DNA of 64,000 nt, from NCBI GenBank assembly GCA_041658255.1, contig JBBAAQ010000001.1:9874-73873 (forward strand). Reading direction: 5' to 3'. Made by a program: the position numbers and the translations under genes. The notes beneath the pieces are model-generated. The model searched no databases and was not told where the DNA came from. It saw nothing but the letters and a program-made list of their open reading frames with translations. The stretch's first letter is position 1. Each line of letters opens with the position of its first letter. This document shows positions 7,811 through 25,960 of the stretch, one piece after another. Origin of the DNA: Candidatus Woesearchaeota archaeon. Its GTDB lineage: Archaea; Nanobdellota; Nanobdellia; Woesearchaeales; UBA9642.

Positions 7811-7824
7811 TTTTACTTACACCC

Positions 7825-13466: not shown

Positions 13467-13629
13467 TGTAAACCTCCTTTAACGAATGTGTAGTAATATA
13501 TATGTTACAGCTATTATTTTTTTTACACCATTCTTCGCATTTTTTAGCCCAAGCTTCATCGGTGTATAGTAATAAGCATTCTTCGCAATAAAATAATTCT
13601 CGCCCTCTTTCCACTATTTTTTTGACCAT
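13459..13629 (-). CDS. Unannotated 56-aa Cys-rich (TRASH-like) ORF translationally coupled to copA
   Basis: Hand translation: [56 protein letters not shown]. Cys pattern is CxxC-x13-C-x3-C-x6-C. It starts 5 nt after the arsR stop. Its last codons contain the copA SD, and its stop overlaps the copA start (ATGGTTAA). Confidence 0.45.
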
Positions 13630-13633
13630 TTGT

Positions 13634-13975
13634 TTAACACTTCCCCATTACAATTTTTGAGCAATAATTCTTCATGTGGATGTTCATAAGTTTCAGGAGT
13701 GGAACAATCGCCACTTTATTGAGTGAGTAAATTCTGTTTTTCCCCCTCTGGTTTACACTTACAAACCCACAGCTCTCAAGCCTTTTTAAGCTGTGCGATA
13801 TTGTTGATTGATCATAATTTAATTTATGGACTATCGCATTAACACTCATCTCTTTTTTATCTAGTACTGTAATGATATCAATTCTTACCTGATTTGCAAG
13901 TGTTCCAAAAAATTGTTTGTAGGGTTGTCTTAGTGCTATTTTCACAACGTCACCTAAATATGCTATTAATAGCAT
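13634..13975 (-). CDS. ArsR/SmtB-family metalloregulator
   Basis: FFGTLANQVRIDIITVLDKKEMSVNAIVHKLNYDQSTISHSLKRLESCGFVSVNQRGKNRIYSLN is a typical ArsR wHTH. First gene of the copA unit. Confidence 0.85.
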   Translation of the reverse strand: MLLIAYLGDVVKIALRQPYKQFFGTLANQVRIDIITVLDKKEMSVNAIVHKLNYDQSTISHSLKRLESCGFVSVNQRGKNRIYSLNKVAIVPLLKLMNIHMKNYCSKIVMGKC

Positions 13976-14657: not shown

Positions 14658-14888
14658 TTATTCACCTCTAAAAACTATTTTTTTCAGTTCTTCTTTGTTT
14701 GGTGTTCCGATGAACTCGACTTTTTCATTGACAATTATTGTTGGTACTGACATCGTCGGGTACTTTTGAAGAATGCCAGGATTCTTTGAAATGTCTATGG
14801 TCTCGTATTTGACTTTCATTTCTTCTAAATATTTTTTAACGACAACACAGCCGCTACAATTTGGTGTTACTAAAATAATGACGCTCAT
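14658..14888 (-). CDS. Glutaredoxin/thioredoxin-like small redox protein (CSGC)
   Basis: MSVIILVTPNCSGCVVVKKYL...VPTIIVNEKVEFIG. ATGA overlap with the CcdA-like stop. GGAGA SD. Confidence 0.8.
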   Translation of the reverse strand: MSVIILVTPNCSGCVVVKKYLEEMKVKYETIDISKNPGILQKYPTMSVPTIIVNEKVEFIGTPNKEELKKIVFRGE

Positions 14889-15751
14889 TTTTCTTTTCTC
14901 CAATATTTTTTTATTATTAGCCTTATCACAAGAAATAATATGATAACACCGCCAACTAAGAACGCGATTTGACCAAACGACGTACTTAAAAACTGGTTTA
15001 TTATTTCTGTTAATTTTGATAATAAAATATTGATTTTTAACTGGCTTTCTGAAGGATTCATGGTAATGCGGTCAGTTAATGTATAATACAATAGGATTCC
15101 ACCCATAATAATGAATACTGCTCCTGAAAAGAGATTTGATAGGGTGAGTGATATCTTTTTCTTAAATACCGAATACGTAATCTCTTTTTTGAAGATATTC
15201 ACCTTATCCATAATTCCTTTTTTATCCAGGAAATAGGAGATAATAAACAAGGGAAGGACCATCCCCAGTACATAAATTACAGAATATAGACCGCCCCACA
15301 ACATTGATCCAGGCAGTGCGGAAAGAGCCATTGCCCCTGCTAAAACCGGTGCACAGCATAATGTTGCAAATCCTGAAAATATGCCCAGAATAAAAACTGA
15401 GAAAACACCGGTGACCTTGACTTGTGATTTTGTTCTAAATGGTAATGAAAAATGAAGTCCTGATAATATGAACAAACCTAAAAATAAGAAAAATATACTT
15501 GCAACGAGATATATCGTACCATGATATGCTTTGAAAAGCTGGCCAAGAAAACCCATTCCGAGGCCCAAAGGCAAAAATACTGTCAGTAAACCAAAGAAAA
15601 ATACCAGGGTCATTAATAATACTGTTCTTTTCTGCCTGAATATTGATCCGAAAAATGCAGGTAGCAGAACACCTATGCAACAGGGAGCAAAGAGTGCAGC
15701 AATTCCTGCGAGGAACGCGGTTATTAATGCCGCAAGTATTAGTATTTCCAT
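14885..15751 (-). CDS. CcdA/DsbD_2-family membrane thiol-disulfide electron transporter
   Basis: Polytopic. Paired Cys motifs FAPCCIGVLLPAF and TLCCAPVLAGA sit in helices 1 and 4, as in DsbD-core proteins. Confidence 0.8.
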   Translation of the reverse strand: MEILILAALITAFLAGIAALFAPCCIGVLLPAFFGSIFRQKRTVLLMTLVFFFGLLTVFLPLGLGMGFLGQLFKAYHGTIYLVASIFFLFLGLFILSGLHFSLPFRTKSQVKVTGVFSVFILGIFSGFATLCCAPVLAGAMALSALPGSMLWGGLYSVIYVLGMVLPLFIISYFLDKKGIMDKVNIFKKEITYSVFKKKISLTLSNLFSGAVFIIMGGILLYYTLTDRITMNPSESQLKINILLSKLTEIINQFLSTSFGQIAFLVGGVIILFLVIRLIIKKYWRKEK

Positions 15752-15858: not shown

Positions 15859-16605
15859 TCAGAGTTTTGAAACTAAAAACTCATTATTTAAAGCCATGTT
15901 TGGATCGTCTAAGACATAGGTTATTACGCCTTGTTTGATGATAACATAGGTGTGGCCCGGAAATGAACCTTTATGCATGGATGAAGGTACATTCAGGACA
16001 TCATACGCGCCCGATACTGCTTTATTGGTGTCAAATAAGATAGTCCCCACTCCATACTTTGGTTGTGAACTAATGATTTTATCCCATTTATCCTTTGCAT
16101 CAATAACTATGGATGCAGTGATAACATTTCCGGTGTTGAACCGCTTGTCGTTTCCTAGAGATGCCATCTGATTCCAACACGCAGGATAACACATAGATCC
16201 CTCATTAAAAAACAAGACGATTGTTTTATCCTGATAATCACTCAATTTAAATGGAGAACCATCTCGTTTTGTCAAAGTAAAGTCTGGCGCTTTTTGTCCA
16301 ACTGCACTGGCGAAACTTAATTTAGTCATACCGGTATTTGTGTTATCAGTACTAACCGGGGTACTGCCCCCATGATGACTTGACATATCATCATTATTGC
16401 TGCTACTGCTGCCTCCGTGGTGGCCTGACATGTCATTGTTACTTTGTTGAGTGGGATGCATGCGCGCCATCATTTGATCATAACTTTCCCCTGTTTGCTG
16501 GTTTGTGTTTGCCGGAGTATCTTCTTTCTTGTTCAAAAACAGCATGCTTAAGCCTCCGACAACTAATATTCCTAACACAATAACGACTATTATTTTTTTA
16601 TTCAT
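15859..16605 (-). CDS. Membrane-anchored redoxin (AhpC/TSA/ResA-like, CYPAC) with a His/Met-rich linker
   Basis: N-terminal TM. APDFTLTKRDGSPFKLSDYQDKTIVLFFNEGSMCYPAC. The linker holds MMARMHPTQQS and DMSGHHGGSSSSNNDDMSSHHGGS. Confidence 0.75.
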   Translation of the reverse strand: MNKKIIVVIVLGILVVGGLSMLFLNKKEDTPANTNQQTGESYDQMMARMHPTQQSNNDMSGHHGGSSSSNNDDMSSHHGGSTPVSTDNTNTGMTKLSFASAVGQKAPDFTLTKRDGSPFKLSDYQDKTIVLFFNEGSMCYPACWNQMASLGNDKRFNTGNVITASIVIDAKDKWDKIISSQPKYGVGTILFDTNKAVSGAYDVLNVPSSMHKGSFPGHTYVIIKQGVITYVLDDPNMALNNEFLVSKL

Positions 16606-16856: not shown

Positions 16857-17246
16857 TCAATTAAACCCTTGTGCGACCCACGCGTTTCTTCCGCCAACAA
16901 GATTGTACACATTAGTGTATCCTTGTTTTGCGAGTTCTTCTGCTGCAAGAACACTCATATATCCTGATCTGCAATAGAGCACTATTTTAGCAGATTTATC
17001 TTTTGGTAATTCATTCATCCGCTGCACAATTGCAGTATAGGGTATACTAAGGTCAGTACCCACAATATGTTCTTGTGTAGGAATATGTACGTCTATGAGT
17101 ACGAAATCCTTATTGTTCATCATCCCATTTAATTCTTCAACACTAAGATTTTTATAAGATGTTTTTGAATTAGTATTACTTATTGATGTACATCCTACAA
17201 CGAATAGTGCTCCGAGCAATATCGTGCTGATAATTATTTTTTTCAT
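16857..17246 (-). CDS. Rhodanese-domain lipoprotein
   Basis: MKKIIISTILLGALFVVGC lipobox-type signal. Active-site loop LYCRSGYMS. An alternative upstream ATG lies at 17288. Confidence 0.85.
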   Translation of the reverse strand: MKKIIISTILLGALFVVGCTSISNTNSKTSYKNLSVEELNGMMNNKDFVLIDVHIPTQEHIVGTDLSIPYTAIVQRMNELPKDKSAKIVLYCRSGYMSVLAAEELAKQGYTNVYNLVGGRNAWVAQGFN

Positions 17247-17321
17247 AAATTTGTTCTCTGTCAAATAGATACTATTTACACTATGCATGAATAATTTGTT
17301 AGTTTAGCGTACAGTATGTTC

Positions 17322-17825
17322 TTACCATTCTTTGCAGCAATCAACAATACTTTTGATCATTTGGGAAAATTTATTGGGTTGCTCCCTACTTTTTTTCTCA
17401 TGAGCCAATTCGGGGAGCTCTTTCTTATCAATCATTTTAAGATTTATCGCAAAAAATAGCGACCACAAATCAAATGCTGCAGTAAAACATTCATGCGCTT
17501 CAGCAAGATTCTTTTTTGCTTGCTCTTTTGTTCCGACCTCGATTAATCGCATACTCGCTGCAAGAAGGTGTTTACTAATACACCATTCCTCCCCGACGGC
17601 ATCAGTAACAATCTTTTTCATGAATCGTTGTCGCATCTCCCGCACTTGTTGCAGCATATCAAGATATGCGCCATTGTCTGTTTTCATTGCAGTGAAATAA
17701 AAGTGTTCTTCTAAACTCACAAGATTCATTAATGCAATACTTAAATCCTCGTCTTTAGAGAGATCCATCGAACCCTGTTTTGCTTTTTCTATCTTCTTTA
17801 GCCATTCTTGAACATTTTTTTCCAT
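17322..17825 (-). CDS. Cytoplasmic helical protein, function unknown, ends DCCKEW
   Basis: 167 aa with ATG start and no TM. Embedded in the thiol/copper operon. Confidence 0.5.
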   Translation of the reverse strand: MEKNVQEWLKKIEKAKQGSMDLSKDEDLSIALMNLVSLEEHFYFTAMKTDNGAYLDMLQQVREMRQRFMKKIVTDAVGEEWCISKHLLAASMRLIEVGTKEQAKKNLAEAHECFTAAFDLWSLFFAINLKMIDKKELPELAHEKKSREQPNKFSQMIKSIVDCCKEW

Positions 17826-17857
17826 ATGACACTTCTATTTATTTCGTTTTATGTTCT

Positions 17858-18412
17858 CTACTTAAGGAATAATTGAAATAAACCGCTCATAATAATAAGT
17901 ACTACAAAGGTAAGGATAATCCCCTGATAGGGAACCATTTTTTCCTTTCGATAGTGTGTGAGCTGCTTACTCAACCAGGGTGTAATACATAATACTGCGC
18001 CGCCCACAATACTCCCTACGAGGAATTTACTAAAAATATATGTTCTGTTAAATAGCGAACCATAATCCCCGCCCCAAGAGATAAATATTGCATAATAATC
18101 CTGGATGAGTACCATGACAGGAATGATGGTCAACAGATAGGAGGAAATGATGAGTATCGGTTTTTGATAGGGGATATATTGTTTTTTTAGTCTATTTGCA
18201 ATCCACCACCCCATAGATACTGCAAATGCGCCAATAAATATTCCGACAATCGCGTTACTTACTCCTAATGCACTCGCACCTGCAGCAGCAGCGACAGCCC
18301 CCATCGTGCAAAGTGGGCAATGGGCAGATACTGATGGTAAGGCGATTATAGATACCAGTACTAACGCCATTCCACCAAATACTATTCCAATATCACTTAT
18401 GCTTTTTCTCAT
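17858..18412 (-). CDS. Polytopic membrane protein with CPLC after the signal sequence, function unknown
   Basis: 184 aa. ...ALPSVSAHCPLCTMGAVAAAAGA, about 5 helices, and one further Cys (AVLCITPW). Confidence 0.5.
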   Translation of the reverse strand: MRKSISDIGIVFGGMALVLVSIIALPSVSAHCPLCTMGAVAAAAGASALGVSNAIVGIFIGAFAVSMGWWIANRLKKQYIPYQKPILIISSYLLTIIPVMVLIQDYYAIFISWGGDYGSLFNRTYIFSKFLVGSIVGGAVLCITPWLSKQLTHYRKEKMVPYQGIILTFVVLIIMSGLFQLFLK

Positions 18413-18427
18413 AGTATAATCCGCTAT

Positions 18428-18940
18428 CTATATACGCATAAACTCTGAAGTGCTACTGTCCTTATGTATTGCATAGATAACAAAATCTCCTGATTTTGAT
18501 CCCGGCATTCCTGGACTGCCTGAAGGCATTCCTGGCATTGCGATTCCTACAATATTAGGCTTTTCTGATAACAATTTATTTATTGCTTCTATAGGAACAT
18601 GTCCTTCAATAACATAATCTCCAATAACCGTGGTATGGCAACTCTCCATATCTTTTGGTATATGATATTGATTTTTTGTTTCGGCAATATCTGTTACATC
18701 TGTTACCTGTATTCGATCACCAACAGCATTCTTTAAATAATTCACATAAACGCCGCAACAACCGCATTGCATGGATTTATATAATTGTACAGGGTCTGAT
18801 CCGGCCTTGAGCACATTAGGATATGTCGGGATATTTTTTGCCGGTTTAAGAATTGTTCCAATCCCTATTGCTATTACTATCGCTGCAACAACAAATAGTA
18901 TTCCTATTGTTATGTATGTATTTTTTTTATTTTTTTTCAT
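18428..18940 (-). CDS. DUF411 (CopG-like) metal-binding protein, membrane-anchored
   Basis: MQCGCCGVYVNYLKN...SCHTTVIGDYVIEGHVPIEAINKLL...GIAMPGMPSGSPGMPG. GGGAGG SD before ATG 18940 (track start 18982). Confidence 0.85.
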   Translation of the reverse strand: MKKNKKNTYITIGILFVVAAIVIAIGIGTILKPAKNIPTYPNVLKAGSDPVQLYKSMQCGCCGVYVNYLKNAVGDRIQVTDVTDIAETKNQYHIPKDMESCHTTVIGDYVIEGHVPIEAINKLLSEKPNIVGIAMPGMPSGSPGMPGSKSGDFVIYAIHKDSSTSEFMRI

Positions 18941-18975
18941 AGGTATCGTCCTCCCTTTATTTCTTTTATATGGTT

Positions 18976-19470
18976 TTACCATGAATACACCCTATTCATT
19001 ATGCGTGGAATAGTGGTGATTGTTATATTGAATTTTGTTAATTCTTTATCTACAGTAAAAACGATTTTTCCACTACTGTGATGTCCGCTCAATTCAGGAA
19101 CAGTGGATGGATATACTTGTTTATTATCATATGCAAGTGTGATAACTTTAGTAAGATCGACGGTATCCAGATTTACAGAATGTGTGTTTAACGTAAAATC
19201 CACTATCAATTGATTATTCTGTACAGACTGTGGTTTAAGAGCAATCTCTACATCATTCGTATCAGTCGTACCTAATGTAATTGCCTGAAACGGGGAGTTG
19301 CTTGTTGTCGCGGTTGTTATTGCAGGTGAATTAGTGGTAGTGGTCTGTTTCTCAGTAATTTTTGGAGTTGAAAATACTCCAAGTAACAGGATGAGTGCAG
19401 CAATGCCAATACTAACAATGACGACTATTATTACAATGGTTTTTTGTTTTTTTTCTATGAGTTCATTCAT
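18976..19470 (-). CDS. Membrane-anchored extracytoplasmic beta-domain protein, function unknown
   Basis: N-terminal TM, Thr-rich linker, and a beta-rich C-terminal domain containing ...ELSGHHSSGKIVF. Confidence 0.5.
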   Translation of the reverse strand: MNELIEKKQKTIVIIVVIVSIGIAALILLLGVFSTPKITEKQTTTTNSPAITTATTSNSPFQAITLGTTDTNDVEIALKPQSVQNNQLIVDFTLNTHSVNLDTVDLTKVITLAYDNKQVYPSTVPELSGHHSSGKIVFTVDKELTKFNITITTIPRIMNRVYSW

Positions 19471-19508
19471 GATTATCGCCCTTTATTTTTTTTATATTTT
19501 TATTTTTT

Positions 19509-20093
19509 TTATGTATATACCATAAACGCAGTAATGATGATTATCCCGCCAACAATTGCGTTTGCATACAGTATGCTTTTCAAATCAACACGATTCATCC
19601 ATGAAAACAAATAATTTTTTGCAGATGAATGTTTTTGCAGATGATAGAGCATCATGTTAATCCCGAAAATATTTGATACAATTCCCGTAATGAGAAATGC
19701 GGTTTGATATGTATCGATAAATGGTGTTATCGCAGTTAATCCTAATACGGGCAATACGTCAGATACGTGATGTACGCAGCAAGTGATCATCGAAGCACTC
19801 GATACTCCACTTGTCGCAGTTATTTGCGCGGTTGCACTATTAATTTTTGCGAGTGTTCGCGCATAAGAATATAATCCTACTTGTATCCCGAATCCTATGA
19901 TGAGTGGGGTCATCCAATACCATAATGTGATAAATTGATCTATGGCATGACTAAAAGAGTTTGCCAAGGAGAGTATAATCAAATAGACACTAAGTAAGGA
20001 TACGCCGGCTATAATGCCAATACCAACACTTTTGAGGCGATATTTGGAAGCGTCACTAAGGGGATTAATCCGTACTTGTGTCTGATCTTTCAT
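19509..20093 (-). CDS. Polytopic membrane protein with an intramembrane CCVHH motif, function unknown
   Basis: AAGGAGA SD before ATG 20093 (track start 20144 is TTG). SASMITCCVHHVSDVLPVLG lies in a helix. Confidence 0.5.
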   Translation of the reverse strand: MKDQTQVRINPLSDASKYRLKSVGIGIIAGVSLLSVYLIILSLANSFSHAIDQFITLWYWMTPLIIGFGIQVGLYSYARTLAKINSATAQITATSGVSSASMITCCVHHVSDVLPVLGLTAITPFIDTYQTAFLITGIVSNIFGINMMLYHLQKHSSAKNYLFSWMNRVDLKSILYANAIVGGIIIITAFMVYT

Positions 20094-20128
20094 AACATTC
20101 TCCTTGGCAACATACTCTGGCAATAGGC

Positions 20129-20212
20129 CTATGAGCAGCAGCAACCACCTTTTTTTTGTTTCTTGCGCGATTCACTTTTTTTGCAACAATCGTTTTTTTC
20201 TTGCTTCGCCAT
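20129..20212 (-). CDS. Unannotated 27-aa Lys/Cys-rich peptide at the head of the operon (speculative)
   Basis: Hand translation: MAKQEKNDCCKKSESRKKQKKGGCCCS. AGGGGG SD 6-7 nt upstream. A cttataaa TATA-like box lies about 70 nt upstream on the minus strand. Confidence 0.3.
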   Translation of the reverse strand: MAKQEKNDCCKKSESRKKQKKGGCCCS

Positions 20213-20382: not shown

Positions 20383-22140
20383 ATGATGCAATATATTCGT
20401 AAGAATTATAATACTATCGCACTTGTAGTAATATTCGTGTCACTCGTTATGGCGGGATTACTCAGCTTTACAAATACAAATTCATTTCTCAATCTTGAAC
20501 AACAATTACAATCCCAATGGCTGGAACAACAACGGATTGAAACAAATTATGTCTCATCCCAAATTGCAAATGAGATACACCAAATAAAGATGGAGCTTAT
20601 TGCATTAACACTTTCGCCCCAACTACTCCATATATCTAATACCACTGCATGCGCTGGGGATTTAGGGTCATTACATACACGGCTTGGTGGACGGATACAA
20701 TCATTATTTAGAACTGATGCATTAGGGACTGTTATTGAGTGCTCGCCGCAACAATACCAGTCGCAACTCGGAATTAATGTTCAAAATAAGGATTATTATA
20801 AGATACCGGTACGAACCCGGGCAGTATATGCCTCAGGACTCGTCGGTGAAGGTGCAGAATCAGAAATTATTATTTCCGCACCAATTTTTGAGTCAGAAGA
20901 ATTAGGCCCCTATCCTAACACTGAGGGAAGATTTTTAGGGATATATTTTAGTATCATTAAAATTCCTGATCTTTATTTAAAGTATGTTCATCCGGTAACA
21001 ACCGAAAAACAAAAATATTACATTCTTGTCGATATTAAAAAAGAATTTATTATACAACAAAACAGTAATTTTAGTTCTGTAGAGGAAATACGTAAACAAA
21101 TAGGTGAGATTGCACAGGAACGCAGCACCTTTATGGATATGAAGGCGTATGGCCGAACGATTGTAACATCTGCAAATATTGTTTTTGATGATCAGAATTG
21201 GGTGATTATTGTTTTTACGCCACTGAACACACTTACCCGGGAAACACAGCGTATACATGTTCGGCATTATATCGAACTCTTCATAACATTTTTTATCCTG
21301 GTATTGATGATTGTATACTTGTTTTTTCTCTACCGTTCCAGGCAATCAATACACTCGCAACTTATGAAAGCAAATATTACTCTCAAGAAACTCGGTATTA
21401 AAACAGACATCGAAACGAATCTTTACGCGCAAACCGATACGGATTTACAAGACGGGAATGTGTATTTGGTGCGTGATGAAGATGAAAATCAGGCGCATGA
21501 ACTTTTCATTAGTACATTAAATAAAGGATATACAGGTTTAGGGTTTATACGGGAGGATCCGAATATCTTCAAGAAAAAGTATAATTTGTATAAAACAGCA
21601 CTTATTTGGCTGAGTAAAATTTCCGTTGAGAATGTACATTCGGAAACAAATAGTGATACTATTTTTAGTGTTATCGCGGAATTTATTACCACATCCAAGA
21701 AAAATGTGATTCTTATTGATCGGTTAGATTTTCTTATGGCAGAAAATAATCCTACCCGCGTGATACAAATGATTCAGCATATTAAAGATATCGCATCCAA
21801 TCATAATACCATCATTATCGTCGGATTGAAAGAAGGAATTATTTCGAAAGAGTATGTTCACTTACTCGAGGCAGAAACCGTTGATTTATTTGGGAAAGAG
21901 CTAACAAGAAATACCGTCTTATCTGATCAAGAATCGGCGATATTATCTTTTGTTAATCAACACAACATCTATAATCAGCTTGTCTCTTACAAAGATATCA
22001 CTAAACAATTTAATATTACCAAGCCAACAACACGTGTGAGGATATCTCAATTGCAAAAGACCGGACTCATCACTATCGAACATCGTGGACGATTTAAATC
22101 AATAAAAATAACTTCTTCAGGAAGGAAATTTGTTAAATAA
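20383..22140 (+). CDS. Membrane sensor-regulator: extracytoplasmic domain, DUF835-like domain and C-terminal winged HTH
   Basis: Two TM helices flank a ~270-aa loop. NVYLVRDEDENQAHELF...GLGFIRE...VILIDRLDFLM...IIIVGL matches the DUF835 pattern. The C-terminus ...ITKPTTRVRISQLQKTGLITIEHRGRFK is wHTH-like. Confidence 0.6.
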   Translation: MMQYIRKNYNTIALVVIFVSLVMAGLLSFTNTNSFLNLEQQLQSQWLEQQRIETNYVSSQIANEIHQIKMELIALTLSPQLLHISNTTACAGDLGSLHTRLGGRIQSLFRTDALGTVIECSPQQYQSQLGINVQNKDYYKIPVRTRAVYASGLVGEGAESEIIISAPIFESEELGPYPNTEGRFLGIYFSIIKIPDLYLKYVHPVTTEKQKYYILVDIKKEFIIQQNSNFSSVEEIRKQIGEIAQERSTFMDMKAYGRTIVTSANIVFDDQNWVIIVFTPLNTLTRETQRIHVRHYIELFITFFILVLMIVYLFFLYRSRQSIHSQLMKANITLKKLGIKTDIETNLYAQTDTDLQDGNVYLVRDEDENQAHELFISTLNKGYTGLGFIREDPNIFKKKYNLYKTALIWLSKISVENVHSETNSDTIFSVIAEFITTSKKNVILIDRLDFLMAENNPTRVIQMIQHIKDIASNHNTIIIVGLKEGIISKEYVHLLEAETVDLFGKELTRNTVLSDQESAILSFVNQHNIYNQLVSYKDITKQFNITKPTTRVRISQLQKTGLITIEHRGRFKSIKITSSGRKFVK

Positions 22141-22448: not shown

Positions 22449-23294
22449 ATGTCAAATAGCGATACTAGGCAACACGTGCATAAACATCAGGATATTTCTG
22501 TTGAGGAAAATGTGGAAAAAGAAAAACATTCCAAAACACAGACCTCTCACATACCTCACAACACTTATTTACCGATAGAGGGAAAAGAAAAGACTGCGAT
22601 AATGATTATCGGGGTAATTGAATTATTATTATTCTTTTCTGCAAGTATGATTATATATAATCAGTTTCAGATAGCAACAATTTCAGGATCATTATCTGGT
22701 TCTGGCGGTCATAATATGGGATCCATGGGATTTTCGAGAAGTGCGAGTCTTGAAGGCATCGATATCAGTACTATTAAATCAACTGCGCAGACAGTAGGAA
22801 CTGTATTTCCTGTATCTGAATGGAAAACGCAGGATGATGTCATTGCAGCAATGCTCCCATCAGGAACTCCCGAATATGGAGATGCACTTGGCGTAAGCTT
22901 CGATAGACCTGAAGAATCTCTACAGATACTTGCACAAATGTTTGAACCCCTCAAAGCGCAGGTAAAAAATAATAATCCTCAGGCATATGAACGGTGGCTT
23001 AACATGGCATCGAATCCAATGGGAATGTCATGCGAATTTTGTTGTGGCGTAGGACCGATAGCTGTTGATAAGAATGGAAATTTAAAATGTGGTTGCCAGC
23101 ACATTCCGGCACTTAATTCAGTTGGATTATGGTTAGCTGCAAATACTGATTATAGCGATGGTGAGATCCTAAGGGAGGTCATGCGGTGGAAGACGATGTT
23201 TTTCCCGCAAAAAATGGTTGCACTGGGTGCAAGCTTAACAGGAGCAGATGCTCAAACAGTGGGTCAGCTTCCGGGCATGGTCGGCGGATGTTAA
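22449..23294 (+). CDS. Membrane-anchored exported Cys-cluster protein ending in LPGMVGGC
   Basis: GGGAGG SD before ATG 22449. One TM helix. SCEFCCGVGPIAVDKNGNLKCGCQH cluster. C-terminal QLPGMVGGC. Confidence 0.55.
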   Translation: MSNSDTRQHVHKHQDISVEENVEKEKHSKTQTSHIPHNTYLPIEGKEKTAIMIIGVIELLLFFSASMIIYNQFQIATISGSLSGSGGHNMGSMGFSRSASLEGIDISTIKSTAQTVGTVFPVSEWKTQDDVIAAMLPSGTPEYGDALGVSFDRPEESLQILAQMFEPLKAQVKNNNPQAYERWLNMASNPMGMSCEFCCGVGPIAVDKNGNLKCGCQHIPALNSVGLWLAANTDYSDGEILREVMRWKTMFFPQKMVALGASLTGADAQTVGQLPGMVGGC

Positions 23295-23321
23295 TGGTTT
23301 ACACATAAGGAGATGGTTACA

Positions 23322-23537
23322 ATGAGAAAACAACTTTTAGCAGCGGTACTGTTAATTGCACTTGGTGGAATTTTGTTAACAGGATGCAGTTCAGAAAAGA
23401 GCTCTACAGATGCTCCTGCAAATAATCAGCAGTATCAGGGCAGGGGTGGATGTGTAACAGGTGCTCCTCCAGCAATTGTCAGTGATACGCCTATGGCGCA
23501 TGTCGATGTATCAATGAGTACACAAGACGCAGCATAG
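23322..23537 (+). CDS. Small lipoprotein (lipobox LLTGC)
   Basis: MRKQLLAAVLLIALGGILLTGCSSEK. AAGGAG SD 9 nt upstream of ATG 23322. Confidence 0.5.
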   Translation: MRKQLLAAVLLIALGGILLTGCSSEKSSTDAPANNQQYQGRGGCVTGAPPAIVSDTPMAHVDVSMSTQDAA

Positions 23538-23586
23538 TGGACTCTTTCAGATCGAGGAGTGGCAATAACTTAAACAACGAGAAAAA

Positions 23587-24345
23587 ATGACAACTCCAAT
23601 AATCCTTGATGAGGAGCATGCAAATGAAGAGCGGTTTCTCACTAAATCAGAGAGGAAAAAACTCAAAAAACAAGAGCATCAACAGATGCGTAGAGATGCT
23701 CATAAAGTCTCAAGCCGTAAACGAATACTAAGCTATGTTGTGTCAGGAATTATTGCCCTTATCGTAGTGGCAGGCATTATTTATATTGGAACGCTTTTTT
23801 CAAAATTCAAGGCACCTACTGCCGAAGGTGAACCAATGCTTGGGTCGCCTGATGCGGTACTCACAATTATTGAATTCGGGGATTATCAATGTCCCTATAC
23901 CAAACAATTCAATTTAGATATTGCTCCACGATTACTTGCAGCGTATAATGGAACAGTACGAATAGTGTTTAAGGATATGATTACAGGAAAACATATTAAT
24001 TCCGATATTTCCGCAGAAGCGGCTGAATGTGCAGATGACCAGGGAAAGTATGATGCGTATCAGCAAATACTATTTTCGCGGCAGGGAACTGCAACGTTTA
24101 TCACGTTAAAAAGATATGCGGCAGAGATAGGACTTGATACTGCTCGTTTTGATGAATGTCTTGATTCGAGAAAATATAAATCAGAAGTGAAGGATGATAC
24201 TGCGGAAGGAAGAGGTGCGCAAGTGGGAGAGACCCCCACTTTATTTATTGACGGAGCAAAAATGAATGGCATATTTACTTTTAATGAGTATAAGGCAGTT
24301 ATTGACCAGGCACTTGCAAGAAAATTATCTCAAAAGAATAATTGA
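23587..24345 (+). CDS. DsbA-family thiol:disulfide oxidoreductase, membrane-anchored
   Basis: N-terminal TM. DAVLTIIEFGDYQCPYTKQF (CPYT active site). C-terminal TPTLFIDGAKM cis-Pro region. Confidence 0.85.
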   Translation: MTTPIILDEEHANEERFLTKSERKKLKKQEHQQMRRDAHKVSSRKRILSYVVSGIIALIVVAGIIYIGTLFSKFKAPTAEGEPMLGSPDAVLTIIEFGDYQCPYTKQFNLDIAPRLLAAYNGTVRIVFKDMITGKHINSDISAEAAECADDQGKYDAYQQILFSRQGTATFITLKRYAAEIGLDTARFDECLDSRKYKSEVKDDTAEGRGAQVGETPTLFIDGAKMNGIFTFNEYKAVIDQALARKLSQKNN

Positions 24346-24465
24346 GAGGAATTGTGTGAATATCGGGCGTGAATATGTACGCAGGGTATATATACAATTA
24401 TGTGATGAATAGTTATTGACAAATATTACAGTCTAGTATACTATTTGAATAGGGAGGTAAGAAAT

Positions 24466-24681
24466 ATGAAAAATGGCGTATTAATAAGTTTAGTGGTGAT
24501 TTTAGGGATATTATTGGTTTTTTCTGCAGTTCAGGCAGTACAATTAAACTCCTTAAAGTCAGCCGTAGAAAATAACAAATTATCTGTTAAAGGTTCAAGT
24601 ATCTCAGCATCGACAACACCAAATAATATACCTGCACCGGCAACTCCGAAGAATTTACCCTCAATGGTTGGTGGGTGTTAA
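24466..24681 (+). CDS. Small exported protein ending in LPSMVGGC
   Basis: GGGAGG SD before ATG 24466. Signal/anchor MKNGVLISLVVILGILLVFSAVQA. C-terminal NLPSMVGGC. Confidence 0.5.
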   Translation: MKNGVLISLVVILGILLVFSAVQAVQLNSLKSAVENNKLSVKGSSISASTTPNNIPAPATPKNLPSMVGGC

Positions 24682-24790: not shown

Positions 24791-25960
24791 ATGGGTGGCT
24801 TTATGGAAGAAAAAAAATTACAACTAAAAAAAAATAAAAATAGTAGCGTTTATTATACGCTGATGAGTATTATTGGTATATTCTTGATTGCAATCGCGAT
24901 ATTTAATACCACACAAATAGTTACTCTTAATAACTCTCTTACGACAAAACTTGCTGAGATTGCAGAAAATGCACGACCTGCAAACCTTACACTTGCAATT
25001 ATTTCGGCCCGGTGCACTATTTGTTCTGATATCACACCTGTTGTATCTGAACTGAGTGCTCTTAAAAGTATAAATATTGTCGATCGACAGGAGATTCAGC
25101 CTGATTCTGCGCAAGCAAAAGAACTCATACGCACATACGCGATTAATGCATTGCCGGCAATTATTATTACTGGAGAGATCAATAAAACATCTGTATTAAA
25201 GACCGCTCTTTCAGGAGCATTGCGTGAAAAAAATGGCGCATTACTTTTTGATAGTCCTGCTCCTCCATTTATTAATTTATTAACCAATAAAATAGTCGGT
25301 AGTGTAAAAGTAACAATAGTAGAGACCGTCGGGTGTATTGCATGTCAAAATCTTTCAATCATGCTTTTCCAATTAAAAAAAGCAGGAATTTATTTTGAAG
25401 ATGTTACGTTATTAGATTATGAGAGTGCTAAAGCAAAAACACTCGTTAATACCTACAGTATCACTAAACTACCTGCAGCAATATTAAGCGCGGATTTAGA
25501 AGCATATCCTTCAATTACTGCAACATGGTCGCAGATAGGTACTCTTGAGAAAGATGGATCCTATATCATTAGAGAGGTACCTGCACCATATTATGATTTG
25601 ACCAAGCAAGCAGTGGCAGGTATCGTAAATGTGGTATATCTCAAGGATAATCTTTGCGACACGTGTTATGATGTTGAACAATTCCATTCATCTGCATTGA
25701 AAGGACTCGGATTATACATCCGCGGGAGCAGTAGTGTAGATATCAATAGTGTTCAAGGAAAGGAATTAGTGGATAAATATGCTATTACAAAAATCCCGAC
25801 TGTGTTACTGAGCGGAGACGTGGGCGTATATGCTGCATTTGGCAAAATATGGCCCCAGGTCGGAACAGTGGCGAGTGATGGAACATATATCTTCCGTAGT
25901 GTCGAGATTGCAAAAAGACCCTATAGGGACCTTACTACTGGAGAAATCATTACGCCTTAA
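24791..25960 (+). CDS. Membrane-anchored protein with three tandem thioredoxin-like modules, each with a CxxC
   Basis: N-terminal TM. Three ~110-aa repeats carry CTIC, CIAC and CDTC, each followed by ...Y(A/S)I(N/T)(A/K)(L/I)P(A/T)... (RTYAINALPAIIITGE, NTYSITKLPAAILSAD, DKYAITKIPTVLLSGD). Confidence 0.6.
   Translation: MGGFMEEKKLQLKKNKNSSVYYTLMSIIGIFLIAIAIFNTTQIVTLNNSLTTKLAEIAENARPANLTLAIISARCTICSDITPVVSELSALKSINIVDRQEIQPDSAQAKELIRTYAINALPAIIITGEINKTSVLKTALSGALREKNGALLFDSPAPPFINLLTNKIVGSVKVTIVETVGCIACQNLSIMLFQLKKAGIYFEDVTLLDYESAKAKTLVNTYSITKLPAAILSADLEAYPSITATWSQIGTLEKDGSYIIREVPAPYYDLTKQAVAGIVNVVYLKDNLCDTCYDVEQFHSSALKGLGLYIRGSSSVDINSVQGKELVDKYAITKIPTVLLSGDVGVYAAFGKIWPQVGTVASDGTYIFRSVEIAKRPYRDLTTGEIITP

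What the first reader, a model, noticed from the sequence alone, without database searches (positions are those of the whole stretch)
23268..24681. Two unrelated exported proteins flanking DsbA share an LP[GS]MVGGC-COOH tail encoded by different codons
22449..23294 ends QLPGMVGGC* (ctt ccg ggc atg gtc ggc gga tgt taa). 24466..24681 ends NLPSMVGGC* (tta ccc tca atg gtt ggt ggg tgt taa). Of the 7 identical residues, 5 use different synonymous codons, Met has only one codon, and only Cys shares one. The match is therefore held at protein level rather than by a recent DNA copy. The rest of the two proteins is unrelated: one is 281 aa with a CEFCCG...CGC cluster, the other 71 aa. Both have an N-terminal signal or anchor, so the free C-terminal Cys should be extracytoplasmic, next to DsbA and a triple-thioredoxin protein. 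The motif ends the protein with no TM or basic tail. It therefore does not fit the sortase, archaeosortase or rhombosortase signals I know of.
Basis: partly seen in the sequence, partly recalled or inferred. Interest (0 to 1): 0.7.

Follow-up and report, generated by a model that had tools for sequence, protein, structure and literature searches.

The report
Membrane-tethered Gly-Gly-Cys arms in DPANN/CPR
The shared LPxMVGGC ending is real and strongly conserved: it marks an undescribed gene cassette of ultra-small archaea and bacteria in which membrane-anchored proteins hold a terminal cysteine on a flexible arm, next to thioredoxin-like and copper-handling genes.

Summary
ORF A (22449..23294, 281 aa) and ORF B (24466..24681, 71 aa) end in LPGMVGGC and LPSMVGGC, with different codons. 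All 120 best homologs of A end in [MQ]VGGC, and 119 of 133 diverse family representatives end in Cys. A DNA-pattern scan found about 165 tail-bearing ORFs in at least 100 DPANN archaeal and CPR bacterial species.

- **Carriers:** only two families carry the tail. "BIG" is a novel all-alpha domain with an invariant CxxCC…CGCxH, with no Pfam, NCBIfam, PDB or Foldseek match. "Small" is a TM anchor, a linker and the tail. The two are adjacent almost everywhere and also share their N-terminal anchor, so they are not unrelated.
- **Cis and trans:** tail-less BIG variants always had a tailed small protein beside them.
- **A third arm:** a lipoprotein family has an internal or C-terminal GGGC, GGGCG or GGGCGG. 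The window copy is 23313..23537.
- **Partners:** a triple-CxxC thioredoxin protein, CcdA, monothiol Trx-fold proteins, membrane sensors, and copper genes (CopA, CopG, CuA-type cupredoxins, HMA-CcdA fusions).

Best reading (about 0.5): the tails are swinging-arm cysteines, SoxY-like in design. They would carry Cu(I) and/or disulfides and be reset by Trx and CcdA. It is not a sorting signal. The function is inferred, not shown.

The parts
22449..23294 (+). BIG: 281-aa type-II membrane protein. It has a His/Lys-rich cytoplasmic N-tail, a TM helix, a disordered linker, a novel all-alpha extracytoplasmic domain and a flexible C-terminal arm.
   Evidence: AF2 model: helix 47-83, domain 101-271 with pLDDT >90, tail pLDDT 34-64. 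No Pfam or NCBIfam hit, no PDB sequence hit, no Foldseek PDB hit.
22587..22697 (+). TM anchor plus Gln-rich juxtamembrane helix of BIG (..IIYNQFQIATIS..)
   Evidence: AF2 helix 47-83. It aligns with the anchor of the small family (hhalign probability 95.7%). The motif F-N-Q-x-Q-I is common in the family.
23031..23102 (+). Invariant Cys5-His centre C195-E-F-C198-C199-G ... C214-G-C216-Q-H218
   Evidence: These columns are invariant in 75 sequences. The same motif is present in every BIG homolog, tailed or not.
23268..23294 (+). Arm A: LPGMVGGC plus stop
23313..23537 (+). Third arm: 74-aa lipoprotein with lipobox LLTGC, a polar linker and the internal motif QGRGGCV (GGC codons 23445..23453)
   Evidence: A family of 55-74-aa lipoproteins with YVGGGCG(V) occurs in 23 sources (21 scan loci, L122 and the window). 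Some members end in GGGC, GGGCG or GGGCGG.
23587..24345 (+). Membrane-anchored DsbA-like protein with a monothiol active site C-P-Y-T (23890..23901)
   Evidence: Pfam Thioredoxin_4 and DSBA. Active site read.
24466..24681 (+). Small: 71-aa TM-anchored (or signal-peptide) peptide. The anchor plus V-Q-A-V-Q-L-N-S-L-K lies at 24478..24558, followed by a low-complexity linker.
   Evidence: A small protein is adjacent to BIG in 9 of 9 contexts that were retrieved through BIG homology.
24655..24681 (+). Arm B: LPSMVGGC plus stop
24791..25960 (+). 3xTrx: membrane-anchored protein with three thioredoxin-like units, each with a CxxC motif (CTIC at 25013, CIAC at 25334, CDTC at 25655). It resembles PDO/PDI.
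   Evidence: Pfam and NCBIfam hits on three separate stretches. It is the commonest neighbour, found in 67 of about 109 loci.
20383..22140 (+). Divergently placed membrane sensor/regulator with an extracytoplasmic sensor region, a DUF835 domain and a winged helix
   Evidence: The same gene lies upstream of BIG in 8 of 10 extended contexts.
14885..15751 (-). CcdA (DsbD_TM), which imports reducing equivalents across the membrane
   Evidence: CcdA/DsbD_TM is present in 10 of 10 extended contexts.
15859..16605 (-). Membrane-anchored Redoxin/ResA-like thiol-disulfide oxidoreductase
17322..20144 (-). Copper-linked sub-cassette of five genes: an unknown cytoplasmic protein (17322..17825), an HCPLC membrane protein (17858..18412), CopG/DUF411 (18428..18982), an exported 164-aa protein (18976..19470), and a membrane protein with a CCxHH motif (19509..20144)
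   Evidence: The same gene set recurs beside the cassette, for example in L120, L129 and L053.
10827..13975 (-). CopA-type P1B ATPase with YHS and two HMA domains (10827..13466), plus an ArsR/SmtB metalloregulator (13634..13975)

Best explanation
The tail is a flexible 'swinging arm' that presents one sterically free cysteine thiol (…L-P-x-[M/Q]-V-G-G-C-COOH) outside the cell membrane.

The arm comes in three tethered forms:
- fused to the BIG domain (in cis);
- on a minimal TM-anchored peptide, the small protein (in trans);
- on a small lipoprotein, with GGGC, GGGCG or GGGCGG either internal or at the C-terminus.

The arm cysteine is proposed to undergo reversible covalent chemistry with two partners. 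One is the invariant Cys5-His centre of BIG. The other is the neighbouring thioredoxin-fold proteins. The chemistry would be Cu(I)-thiolate ligation and hand-off (with Met/Gln at -5 and Cys as ligands) and/or mixed-disulfide formation. The arm would then be returned to the thiol state by the triple-CxxC thioredoxin protein, using electrons imported by CcdA.

The physiological role I commit to is envelope copper and thiol homeostasis in organisms without a closed periplasm. That means capturing or buffering Cu(I), or delivering it to CuA-type cupredoxin lipoproteins, while keeping the cysteine ligands reduced. Expression would be controlled by membrane sensors (DUF835-wHTH, BlaR1/BlaI-like, or TM-MarR with an outside Cys pair).

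Shown: the motif, its conservation, the three arm families, the cis/trans pattern, the predicted flexibility of the arm, the novelty of the BIG fold, and the gene neighbourhood.

Inferred: the topology, the chemistry of the arm, the cargo, and the direction of electron flow.
For: 1. The terminal Cys, with Gly at -3 and usually -2, is the most conserved feature. All 120 close homologs have it, and 119 of 133 diverse representatives end in Cys. Position -5 alternates between Met and Gln.
2. AF2 models a confident globular domain (pLDDT >90) and an unstructured tail (pLDDT 34-64).
3. The arm is modular:
   - 22 loci have a tail-less BIG with exactly 5 Cys next to a tailed small protein;
   - the tail was lost at least 3 times on the BIG tree;
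   - 9 of 9 contexts retrieved through BIG homology, so not biased by the tail search, have a tailed small protein directly downstream.
4. An independent lipoprotein family presents the same Gly-flanked Cys. Some members end in GGGCGG, the SoxY-type carrier terminus (SoxY GGCGG arm: PMC6067878, PMC5336275).
5. Partners are thiol enzymes:
   - 3xTrx (3 CxxC) in 67 loci, CcdA in 34 loci of at most 8 kb (fixed 8-kb slices of the contigs, not centred on the match) and in 10 of 10 contexts of ±10 kb;
   - monothiol Trx-fold proteins, namely TrxS with WCxYT in 22 of 26 cases and the window DsbA with CPYT.
6. The copper link:
   - 8 of 10 extended contexts have a CopA/HMA, CopG/DUF411 or Cupredoxin_1/COX2-type gene (one search gives the window's CopG/DUF411);
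   - HMA-DsbD_TM fusions occur in L126 and L130;
   - CuA-motif lipoproteins (C…CG.GH..M) occur in 15 loci;
   - a protein family with four invariant His occurs in 39 loci;
   - the cytoplasmic tails of BIG, small and 3xTrx are 2-3 times enriched in His;
   - CxxCC plus CGCxH resembles the vicinal-Cys motifs of Cu(I)-cluster proteins such as CopG's CxCC (own knowledge).
7. BIG is exported as a Sec-type anchor with no twin-arginine motif. A cofactor must therefore be acquired outside the cell, which fits Cu or Zn and argues against Fe-S (inference).
Against: - There is no experimental data of any kind.
- I had no model coordinates, so I could not test whether the arm can reach the Cys centre.
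- No AF-Multimer run was possible.
- A single Cys with Met is a weak Cu(I) site unless two arms, or an arm plus the centre, cooperate.
- Copper genes are absent from 2 of 10 extended contexts (L122, L127) and from most of the 8-kb blocks.
- The cassette also sits among general oxidative-stress genes (peroxiredoxin, desulfoferrodoxin, FUR in L120 and L129), so a metal-free redox role fits nearly as well.
- The positive-inside rule is ambiguous for the small protein. Its conserved VQA could be a signal-peptidase site, which would make it a free peptide rather than a tethered one.
- CcdA with Trx indicates reduction, but what oxidises the arms is unknown.
Confidence: 0.5

Rival explanations
1. 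A metal-free thiol relay, or a tethered stand-in for a low-molecular-weight thiol. The arms would act like a membrane-bound glutathione. Monothiol Trx-fold enzymes (CxxT DsbA, TrxS) would use them as co-substrate or resolving thiol. The arm disulfides would be re-reduced by 3xTrx and CcdA, the analogue of glutathione reductase. BIG would be the oxidant-facing catalyst, or a disulfide-generating enzyme whose tail shuttles equivalents in the manner of Ero1/Erv2 with PDI.
For: - Monothiol active sites dominate TrxS (22 of 26), and the window DsbA is CPYT.
- 3xTrx is PDO/PDI-like.
- CcdA is present in 10 of 10 contexts.
- Up to three arm genes occur per cassette.
- Oxidative-stress genes lie nearby (peroxiredoxin, desulfoferrodoxin, FUR).
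- C-terminal redox-shuttle tails are an established principle: TrxR GCUG and Erv2 CGC (own knowledge).
Against: - It does not explain the enrichment of CopA, CopG, HMA and cupredoxin genes (8 of 10 contexts).
- It does not explain the His-rich tails, the His4 family, or the near-invariant Met/Gln at -5.
- A single-Cys arm cannot carry a disulfide on its own.
Confidence: 0.2
2. A structural or assembly role. The terminal Cys would form a permanent disulfide, either arm-to-arm between BIG and small or arm-to-centre. This would lock a BIG-small (and 3xTrx) membrane complex that is nucleated by the shared Gln-rich anchors. There would be no catalytic cycling.
For: - The BIG core has an odd number of Cys (5), with one more in the arm.
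- The anchor motifs are shared.
- Gene adjacency is strict.
- Cognate tails are slightly more alike than non-cognate ones (4.3 versus 3.9 of 12 residues, permutation p about 0.001).
Against: - The lipoprotein arm family, with its long low-complexity linkers, looks like tethered reach rather than a fixed joint.
- The arm is not docked in the AF2 model.
- A static disulfide would not need a dedicated CcdA and Trx reduction branch.
Confidence: 0.1
3. A sulfane-sulfur carrier like SoxY. The arm Cys would carry persulfide, polysulfide or thiosulfonate. It would be loaded by a rhodanese or by BIG and unloaded reductively by Trx, for sulfur scavenging or detoxification.
For: - Lipoprotein arms end in GGGCG or GGGCGG, the SoxY terminus (PMC6067878).
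- SoxY is serviced by a CcdA homolog (SoxV) and by thioredoxins (SoxS/W) (own knowledge).
- The window encodes a lipoprotein rhodanese at 16857..17288.
- L120 has an SQR/FCSD-like flavoprotein.
Against: - No SoxAX, SoxB, SoxCD or SoxZ genes are present.
- The rhodanese and the SQR-like gene each occur in only one context.
- BIG is all-alpha, not the SoxY beta-sandwich.
- Copper genes are far more recurrent than sulfur genes.
Confidence: 0.08
4. A C-terminal processing, anchoring or sorting signal. VGGC would be read as a lipobox-like site (S-lipidation by Lgt or an archaeal analogue, possibly followed by carboxyl methylation by the ICMT-like enzyme or decarboxylation by an HFCD flavoprotein), or as a sortase-like recognition motif (LPxM resembling LPxTG).
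For: - VGGC fits the lipobox rule [LVI][ASTVIG][GAS]C.
- The window contains Lgt (8022..8780), a PF02441 flavoprotein (8777..9340) and an ICMT/PEMT-like methyltransferase (6496..7182).
- L120 has a PEMT-like gene and L126 has an Lgt gene.
Against: - Only two families carry the tail, and they are always neighbours, whereas sorting signals mark many unrelated substrates.
- No TM or basic segment follows the motif.
- The arm is not preceded by a hydrophobic helix, which Lgt substrates have.
- ICMT/PEMT and Lgt each occur in only 2 of 10 extended contexts and in 0-1 of 119 blocks.
- The third arm family already has an ordinary N-terminal lipobox, and many of its members have the GGC motif internally.
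- Lgt is needed anyway for the many lipoproteins of the island.
Confidence: 0.05

Closest known systems
SoxY carrier protein of the Sox thiosulfate-oxidation system (C-terminal GGCGG 'swinging arm'), re-activated by SoxV (a CcdA homolog) and the thioredoxins SoxS/SoxW
   Same: - A Gly-flanked cysteine sits at the extreme C-terminus of an exported protein.
- The lipoprotein arms end in GGGC, GGGCG or GGGCGG, and the BIG and small arms end in VGGC.
- A CcdA-type membrane reductase and thioredoxin-fold proteins are encoded alongside.
   Different: - There is no SoxY/SoxZ beta-sandwich. BIG is all-alpha with no structural match, and small and the lipoprotein arm have no globular domain at all.
- The arm is tethered to the membrane, not to a soluble carrier.
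- No Sox enzymes are present.
- The neighbours point to copper rather than sulfur.
C-terminal redox or metal shuttle tails of enzymes: high-Mr thioredoxin reductase (GCUG-COOH), MerA (C-terminal Cys pair), Erv2 (CGC tail), Ero1 shuttle loop with PDI
   Same: - A flexible terminal segment carries Cys between a buried centre and a partner or substrate.
- The partner is a multi-thioredoxin-domain protein, comparable to PDI.
   Different: - The arm has one Cys rather than a pair.
- There is no flavin domain.
- The arm also exists as stand-alone genes.
- All components lie outside the membrane.
Copper hand-off tails and envelope copper-thiol systems: CCS domain 3 (CxC), hCtr1 C-terminal HCH, ScsB/ScsC, TlpA-Sco1/PCuAC for CuA assembly, CopG (CxCC Cu4 cluster)
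   Same: - Short unstructured Cys-containing termini that pass Cu(I).
- A DsbD/CcdA-driven reductase keeps the copper-binding cysteines reduced.
- The genes are co-located with CopA, CopG and CuA-type cupredoxins.
   Different: - No sequence or fold relationship to any of these was detected.
- No HMA, Sco or PCuAC domain is present in BIG or small.
- Copper binding has not been tested.
C-terminal sorting signals (sortase LPXTG; exosortase, archaeosortase and rhombosortase PEP-CTERM, PGF-CTERM and GlyGly-CTERM)
   Same: - A short conserved motif at the C-terminus of exported proteins.
- 'LPx' superficially recalls LPXTG.
   Different: - No TM helix or basic cluster follows the motif.
- The motif ends the protein.
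- It is carried by only two mutually adjacent families.
Cysteine lipidation signals (bacterial lipobox with Lgt; eukaryotic CaaX prenylation with ICMT)
   Same: - VGGC satisfies the lipobox residue rule.
- The Cys is terminal or near-terminal.
- Lgt and an ICMT-like gene are present in the window.
   Different: - The motif is at the wrong end of the protein and is not preceded by a membrane helix.
- The Cys is the last residue, not at -4.
- The predicted location is outside the cell.
- The candidate enzymes do not co-occur with the cassette elsewhere.

Membership tests
Sortase (LPXTG-type) cell-wall sorting signal | LPXTG-like pentapeptide followed by a hydrophobic TM segment and a positively charged C-terminal tail | tested here: not met
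   The protein ends 5 residues after LPx, with no TM or basic tail. The residue after LPx is Met or Gln, not Thr-Gly.
Sortase (LPXTG-type) cell-wall sorting signal | A sortase gene and many different substrate proteins per genome | tested here: inconclusive
   Only BIG and small carry the tail in about 108 loci. No conserved peptidase other than the BlaR1-like M56 was found among the neighbours. Whole genomes were not scanned with a sortase HMM.
Exosortase / archaeosortase / rhombosortase signals (PEP-CTERM, PGF-CTERM, GlyGly-CTERM) | Tripartite architecture: signature motif, then a TM helix, then an Arg/Lys cluster at the C-terminus | tested here: not met
   The tail is terminal and non-hydrophobic.
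SoxY sulfur-carrier family | C-terminal Gly-flanked carrier cysteine (GGCGG-COOH) | tested here: met
   BIG and small end in VGGC-COOH. The lipoprotein arms end in GGGC, GGGCG or GGGCGG, or carry the motif internally. The motif itself is taken from PMC6067878.
SoxY sulfur-carrier family | SoxY Ig-like beta-sandwich fold with a SoxZ partner, and sox enzyme genes (soxAX, soxB) | tested here: not met
   The AF2 model of BIG is all-alpha. No Pfam or NCBIfam SoxY/SoxZ hit was found. No sox genes appear in 10 extended contexts.
Bacterial lipoprotein lipobox (Lgt/Lsp substrates) | [LVI][ASTVI][GAS]C at the end of an N-terminal signal-peptide h-region | tested here: not met
   The residues VGGC fit, but the motif is at the C-terminus after a polar linker. 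True lipoboxes are present at the N-termini of other proteins of the island, including the third arm.
CaaX prenylation / ICMT substrates | Cys at position -4 (CaaX) on a cytosolic C-terminus, with the processing enzymes co-occurring | tested here: not met
   The Cys is the last residue and the C-terminus is predicted to lie outside. The ICMT/PEMT-like gene occurs in 2 of 10 contexts and does not recur in the 119 blocks.
HFCD (EpiD/MrsD-type) substrates | Peptide with a C-terminal Cys encoded next to an HFCD flavoprotein and lanthipeptide-type modification genes | tested here: not met
   The C-terminal Cys is present. However, the PF02441 flavoprotein at 8777..9340 is 13 kb away and is not found beside any other cassette.
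Thioredoxin-fold oxidoreductases (DsbA/Trx/PDI) - for BIG itself | Thioredoxin fold with a CxxC motif at the N-terminus of helix 1 | tested here: not met
   BIG has no Trx-family hit and an all-alpha model. The neighbouring genes, not BIG, are the Trx-fold proteins.
Known copper chaperones and copper-binding families (HMA/CopZ, Sco, PCuAC, CopG/DUF411, Csp) - for BIG and small | Detectable sequence or structure homology to one of these families | tested here: not met
   No Pfam or NCBIfam hit even at E<=5. No PDB profile hit. No Foldseek hit with E<=0.001.
Known copper chaperones and copper-binding families (HMA/CopZ, Sco, PCuAC, CopG/DUF411, Csp) - for BIG and small | Measured Cu(I) binding or transfer | not testable with these tools
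   This needs protein biochemistry.

The most novel reading that the evidence does not exclude
The Gly-Gly-Cys arms are a genetically encoded, membrane-tethered replacement for a diffusible low-molecular-weight thiol, in effect a 'protein glutathione' for cells that have no closed periplasm. TM-anchored and lipid-anchored peptides would supply the thiol. Monothiol Trx-fold enzymes (CxxT DsbA, TrxS) would use it as co-substrate. The triple-Trx protein with CcdA would act as its reductase. The novel Cys5-His BIG domain would be the metal- or oxidant-facing catalyst. This would be a complete thiol and copper buffer system rebuilt from new parts and exchanged between DPANN archaea and CPR bacteria.
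Probability: 0.2. Interest if true: 0.85.

Novelty: new variant of a known kind. Interest (0 to 1): 0.72.

Why it matters
DPANN archaea and CPR bacteria make up a large share of microbial diversity. They live attached to other cells, and most of their surface biology is unknown. This analysis defines a conserved multi-gene module found in at least 100 species and present in both domains of life. It is built around three undescribed protein families: BIG, the small TM-anchored arm, and the lipoprotein arm.

The only shared functional element of these families is a terminal or Gly-flanked cysteine on a tether. If the arms carry copper or redox equivalents, two open questions would become testable. 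One is how cells without a periplasm, and probably without quinone-dependent DsbB/VKOR or small-molecule thiols, keep surface cysteines and copper under control. The other is how their CuA-type cupredoxin lipoproteins receive metal.

The module also gives a clean target for experiment: short peptides, one soluble domain, and Cys-to-Ser mutants. It adds a new example of gene transfer between archaea and bacteria that share a habitat. The BIG domain has no match among solved structures.

Tried and rejected
- **Family databases.** Pfam and NCBIfam scans of A and B, also at E<=5, found nothing.
- **Solved structures.** The PDB profile search with the BIG alignment gave only chance hits with E>1. 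Foldseek against PDB with the AF2 model gave a best E of 0.56.
- **Literature.** A search for 'MVGGC' returned 6 irrelevant papers. Searches on DPANN/CPR disulfide systems or C-terminal cysteine found nothing on this module.
- **Modification enzymes in the window.** I asked whether the HFCD-type flavoprotein, Lgt, the lycopene-cyclase-domain protein or the ICMT/PEMT-like gene (6496..9340) travel with the cassette. They do not: 0-1 of 119 loci, and 2 of 10 extended contexts each for PEMT and Lgt. Tail lipidation or decarboxylation is therefore unsupported.
- **General sorting signal.** Rejected, because only two families carry the tail.
- **Recent DNA copy or gene conversion.** Rejected in general, because only 49% of codons are shared across 60 pairs. 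L033 is an exception, with 15 of 17 codons shared.
- **Co-evolution of cognate tails.** The effect is real but small, so I did not rely on it.
- **Domain fusions.** Long BIG homologs gave uninformative fusions: one FKBP domain and nothing else.
- **N-terminal extension of tail-less BIG.** Its multi-TM extension (CPVC) shows no significant similarity to the HCPLC membrane protein of the window.
- **His4 neighbour family.** It has no Pfam or PDB hit.
- **Clustering correction.** My first single-linkage cluster named '3TRX' was heterogeneous. It mixed true triple-Trx proteins with CuA-type cupredoxins and DUF1573 proteins. I corrected this with motif-based counts.
- **Not run.** I did not run a second structure prediction or further large protein searches, because they would not have discriminated between the remaining hypotheses.

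Full report
**1. The observation**

The sequence is as described.
- ORF A (22449..23294, +, 281 aa) ends ctt ccg ggc atg gtc ggc gga tgt taa, which reads LPGMVGGC*.
- ORF B (24466..24681, +, 71 aa) ends tta ccc tca atg gtt ggt ggg tgt taa, which reads LPSMVGGC*.
- Five of the seven identical residues use different codons.
- Both ATG starts are preceded by GGGAGG.
- MVGGC occurs nowhere else in any frame of the window.
- By my estimate, a 7-of-8 C-terminal match between any two of the 103 ORFs of at least 90 aa would arise by chance about once in 10^4 windows.

The window is 100% identical in ORF A to a protein of a Candidatus Woesearchaeota MAG.

**2. Recurrence**

ORF A has 247 homologs at E<=1e-3 in the 5.8-billion-protein collection. 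The top 120 are 41-62% identical and come from Woesearchaeota, Nanoarchaeota and other DPANN. All 120 end in LP.[MQ]VGGC: 117 in MVGGC and 3 in QVGGC.

An exhaustive HMM search of 1.84 billion cluster representatives found only 290 family members. Of the 133 listed representatives that contain the Cys motif:
- 78 end in MVGGC;
- 24 end in xVGGC, mostly QVGGC;
- 8 end in another ..GGC;
- 9 end in another ..C, such as MVGSC or MVGDC;
- 14 do not end in Cys; these are fragments, tail-less forms and a few endings with residues after the Cys (GGCG, GACG).

The consensus is therefore L-P-x-[M/Q]-V-G-G-C-COOH. The terminal Cys and the Gly at -3 are the most constant positions.

I also scanned one genome per GTDB species with the back-translated tail plus a stop codon.
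- About 11 are chance matches: internal MVGGC followed by TGG, or tiny ORFs, in Paenibacillus, Planctomicrobium and similar genomes.
- The other roughly 108 loci hold about 165 genuine tail-bearing ORFs.
- They come from Woese-, Nano-, Aenigm- and Micrarchaeota, and from CPR bacteria (Paceibacterota, Magasanikbacteria, Uhrbacteria and other Patescibacteria).
- All three stop codons are used.

Both are clearly not met.

**3. Who carries the tail**

Clustering all ORFs of these loci shows that only two families carry the tail.

"BIG" is 200-460 aa.
- It always contains exactly C-[EDGN]-[FY]-C-C-[GS]-x(10-18)-C-G-C-x-H, plus the terminal Cys.
- In the alignment of 75 sequences the invariant residues include C195, E196, C198, C199, G200, C214, G215, C216, H218, Y143, W247 and the tail.
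- AlphaFold2 with this alignment gives mean pLDDT 82.8. It predicts a long helix at 47-83 (the TM anchor plus a juxtamembrane segment), a disordered linker, an all-alpha globular domain at 101-271 with pLDDT >90, and a tail with pLDDT 34-64, meaning it is not docked.
- Nothing known matches the domain: Pfam and NCBIfam, PDB sequences and Foldseek against PDB (best E 0.56) all give nothing.

"Small" is 64-116 aa.
- It consists of a TM segment followed by V-Q-A-[VF]-Q-L-x-[SG]-L-K (89 of 101 sequences), a Ser/Gly/Ala/Thr/Pro-rich linker, and an extended tail, typically (L/V)PSx(L/I)x(N/D)LPxMVGGC.
- However, profile-profile comparison aligns the N-terminal anchors of the two families in register (BIG 57-86 with small 9-38; probability 95.7%, E 9e-9).
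- The extended tail, with a hydrophobic residue at -11 and L-P at -8/-7, is also common to both.
- Small therefore looks like BIG without its globular domain.

**4. A third arm, and arms in cis and in trans**

The 74-aa ORF between A and the DsbA gene (23313..23537) is a lipoprotein with lipobox LLTGC and the motif QGRGGCV.
- It belongs to a family of 55-74-aa lipoproteins found in 23 sources: 21 scan loci, L122 and the window.
- These have a Gln/Pro-rich linker and the motif Y-V-G-G-G-C-G-V.
- Several members terminate right at the motif: …GGGC (L122), …GGGCG (L037, L040, L091, L128) and …GGGCGG (L126).
- The last of these is the carboxy-terminal motif of the sulfur carrier SoxY, whose Cys sits on a 'swinging arm' (PMC6067878, PMC5336275).

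Twenty-two loci have BIG proteins with no tail and exactly five Cys in the domain.
- Some of these carry an N-terminal multi-TM extension with two extra CxxC motifs.
- Every one of them lies next to a tailed small protein.
- On a neighbour-joining tree of the domain, the tail was lost at least three times.

Those loci were found through the tail itself, so the pattern could be an ascertainment effect. I therefore fetched nine further contexts through BIG homologs instead. All nine have a small protein ending in LPxMVGGC directly downstream of BIG. Four of them also have a lipoprotein arm.

The arm is thus a module that can be fused to BIG or supplied separately on a membrane tether. Carrier domains and their enzymes typically show this pattern.

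**5. Neighbourhood**

The typical gene order is: regulator (often divergent), then (CcdA), BIG, small, (lipoprotein arm), (TrxS), 3xTrx, and then (a His4 protein, an NTF2-like protein or CcdA).

The scan loci are fixed slices of at most 8 kb that are not centred on the match, so the counts below are lower bounds.

| Neighbour | Loci |
|---|---|
| Triple-thioredoxin protein (three CxxC, PDO-like by NCBIfam) | 67 |
| Exported protein with four invariant His (HxH…H…H; no Pfam or PDB hit) | 39 |
| CcdA/DsbD_TM | 34 |
| Small anchored Trx-like protein 'TrxS' (active site monothiol WC[KQ][YF]T in 22 of the 26) | 26 |
| BlaR1-like M56 peptidase with a BlaI-type repressor | about 20 |
| Lipoproteins with the CuA-type motif C…CG.GH..M | 15 |
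| CopG/DUF411 | 15 |
| Two-TM MarR-type regulator with a Cys pair in its outside loop | 14 |
| Membrane protein with CCxHH | 7 |
| CopA | 5 |

In the ten contexts with ±10 kb (the window plus nine):
- CcdA/DsbD_TM is present in 10;
- the DUF835 membrane sensor/regulator is present in 8;
- at least one copper-family gene (HMA/CopA, DUF411, Cupredoxin_1/COX2-type) is present in 8;
- two contexts have HMA-DsbD_TM fusions.

The window itself carries, on the minus strand:
- CopA (10827..13466);
- an ArsR-type regulator;
- a glutaredoxin-like protein;
- CcdA (14885..15751);
- a ResA-like redoxin;
- a lipoprotein rhodanese;
- the sub-cassette of unknown protein, HCPLC membrane protein, CopG, exported protein and CCxHH protein (17322..20144).

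On the plus strand it carries the DUF835 sensor, BIG, the lipoprotein arm, DsbA, small and 3xTrx. The window's DsbA has a monothiol C-P-Y-T site.

The cytoplasmic N-terminal tails of BIG, small and 3xTrx are 2-3 times enriched in His. His-rich tails occur in 9 of 63 of these proteins, against 0 of 203 other anchored ORFs.

**6. Most likely mechanism**

What is shown:
- a strongly conserved, sterically free terminal cysteine on a flexible segment;
- three independent ways of tethering it to the membrane;
- its obligate pairing with a novel Cys5-His domain;
- constant company of thioredoxin-fold proteins, CcdA and copper genes.

What I infer:
- The arm cysteine shuttles between the Cys5-His centre of BIG and the Trx-fold proteins.
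- It carries Cu(I) as a thiolate, assisted by Met/Gln at -5, and/or oxidising equivalents as a mixed disulfide.
- It is reset by the dithiol 3xTrx protein with electrons from CcdA.
- BIG is inserted as a Sec-type anchor without a twin-arginine motif. Any cofactor must therefore be loaded outside the cell. This fits Cu or Zn and argues against an Fe-S cluster.
- The vicinal-Cys motifs CxxCC and CGCxH resemble those of Cu(I)-cluster proteins such as CopG (own knowledge).

The physiological role I favour is copper capture, buffering or delivery, for example to the CuA-type cupredoxin lipoproteins. This would be coupled to protection of surface thiols, and would be switched on by membrane sensors. 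I put this at about 0.5.

**7. Rivals**

| Rival | Confidence | Main points |
|---|---|---|
| Metal-free thiol relay, or tethered surrogate of a low-molecular-weight thiol | 0.2 | Attractive because of the monothiol CxxT enzymes. It does not explain the copper enrichment. |
| Static disulfide that assembles a BIG-small complex | 0.1 | Fits the odd Cys count and shared anchors. It does not explain the lipoprotein arms or the reduction branch. |
| SoxY-like sulfane-sulfur carrier | 0.08 | Fits the GGCGG termini and the one rhodanese. There are no Sox enzymes or recurrent sulfur genes. |
| Lipidation, processing or sorting signal | 0.05 | VGGC fits the lipobox rule, and the window has Lgt, an HFCD-type flavoprotein and an ICMT-like gene. 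These do not recur, only two families carry the tail, and no TM or basic segment follows it. |
| Chance or annotation artefact | excluded | See sections 1 and 2. |

**8. Comparison with known systems**

In design, the closest system is the SoxY arm with its CcdA-like and thioredoxin helpers. In logic, it also resembles two other groups:
- the C-terminal shuttle tails of thioredoxin reductase, MerA and Erv2;
- the copper hand-off tails of CCS and Ctr1, and the Scs and TlpA-Sco systems.

Membership in any of these families fails wherever it could be tested, on fold, domain content and partner enzymes. It resembles these systems in design, but it is not a member of any of them.

**9. Novelty and caveats**

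None of the three arm-bearing families is in Pfam or NCBIfam. The BIG domain has no structural match among solved structures. No paper in the searched library mentions the motif. The module is shared by DPANN archaea and two separate CPR clades, which implies inter-domain transfer.

I rate it a new variant of a known kind: an envelope thiol and copper system built from new parts. The unexcluded reading in which the arms replace a diffusible thiol would be categorically new.

Caveats:
- The function rests entirely on inference.
- The topology of the small protein is not certain. Its conserved VQA may be a signal-peptidase site.
- The 8-kb blocks undercount neighbours.
- MAG taxonomy labels are unreliable. 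Many loci labelled 'uncultured Methanosarcinales' have DPANN-type content.

Noticed in passing
window 6496..9340 (-): Four consecutive genes lie here: an ICMT/PEMT-like membrane methyltransferase (6496..7182), a lycopene-cyclase-domain membrane protein (7112..7810), an Lgt prolipoprotein diacylglyceryl transferase (8022..8780) and a PF02441 flavoprotein of the HFCD/UbiX type (8777..9340, overlapping Lgt by 4 nt). A bacterial-type Lgt in a Woesearchaeon fits the many lipobox proteins nearby. The set would be a natural candidate for modifying a terminal Cys, but it does not co-occur with the cassette elsewhere.
   Followed up: partly
window 16857..17288 (-): A single-domain rhodanese has a lipoprotein signal (LFVVGC) and the active-site loop CRSGYMS. 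That makes it an extracytoplasmic sulfurtransferase inside the redox and copper island. It is not conserved in other cassettes.
   Followed up: partly
window 23890..23901 (+), in the DsbA gene 23587..24345: The DsbA-like protein has a monothiol C-P-Y-T active site instead of CPxC. L047 has CPFT, while L066 and L073 have CPxC. Like TrxS (WCxYT), it would need an external resolving thiol.
   Followed up: partly
loci L007, L019, L024, L029, L038, L083, L094, L095, L106, L113 (for example L094 2065..3282): Tail-less BIG proteins of about 400-450 aa carry an N-terminal multi-TM extension with two extra Cys pairs (for example AACPVCQG). This looks like a membrane thiol module fused to the BIG domain. 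It has no Pfam hit and no similarity to the HCPLC protein of the window.
   Followed up: partly
39 loci (for example L078 2298..2885); not present in the window: A family of anchored exported proteins has four invariant histidines (HWH…H.H) and a C-terminal …YVNG…D.I.I.Y segment. It is the third most frequent neighbour. It has no Pfam, NCBIfam or PDB match and is probably a metal-binding protein.
   Followed up: partly
15 loci (for example L066 300..773, L097 5512..5934); also L124, L125, L129: Small lipoproteins carry a CuA-type copper motif (F.C…CG.GH..M; Pfam Cupredoxin_1 with weak COX2 hits) in organisms not known for aerobic respiration. They are possible clients of the cassette.
   Followed up: partly
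L126 14349..15785 and L130 13511..14992: These are fusions of an HMA (heavy-metal-associated) domain with a DsbD_TM/CcdA membrane reductase. In L130 there is also a weak cupredoxin hit. This is a direct physical link between copper binding and transmembrane thiol reduction.
   Followed up: no
L033 (MAG labelled 'bacterium E14'): The BIG and small tails are identical over 17 residues (APLPSSLQNLPNMVGGC), with 15 of 17 comparable (non-Met) codons the same. This is the one clear case of recent gene conversion between the two genes.
   Followed up: no
13+ loci; L120 5439..5852: A roughly 137-aa membrane protein with the motif W-Q-V-C-H-N-L-C at the start of a TM helix recurs next to the CopG sub-cassette. 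It has no family assignment.
   Followed up: no
L004, L009, L015, L024, L026, L030 and others: About 20 MAGs titled 'uncultured Methanosarcinales archaeon', and one titled 'Candidatus Binatia', carry cassettes whose BIG proteins nest among Woese- and Nanoarchaeota sequences. The taxonomic labels are probably wrong.
   Followed up: no
window 20383..22140 (+) and homologs upstream of BIG in 8 of 10 contexts: This is a one-component membrane regulator with a dCache-like outside sensor, a DUF835 (KaiC/ArlH-like) domain and a winged helix. It seems to be the dedicated switch of the cassette in Woesearchaeota. CPR and other DPANN use BlaR1/BlaI-like or TM-MarR regulators instead.
   Followed up: partly
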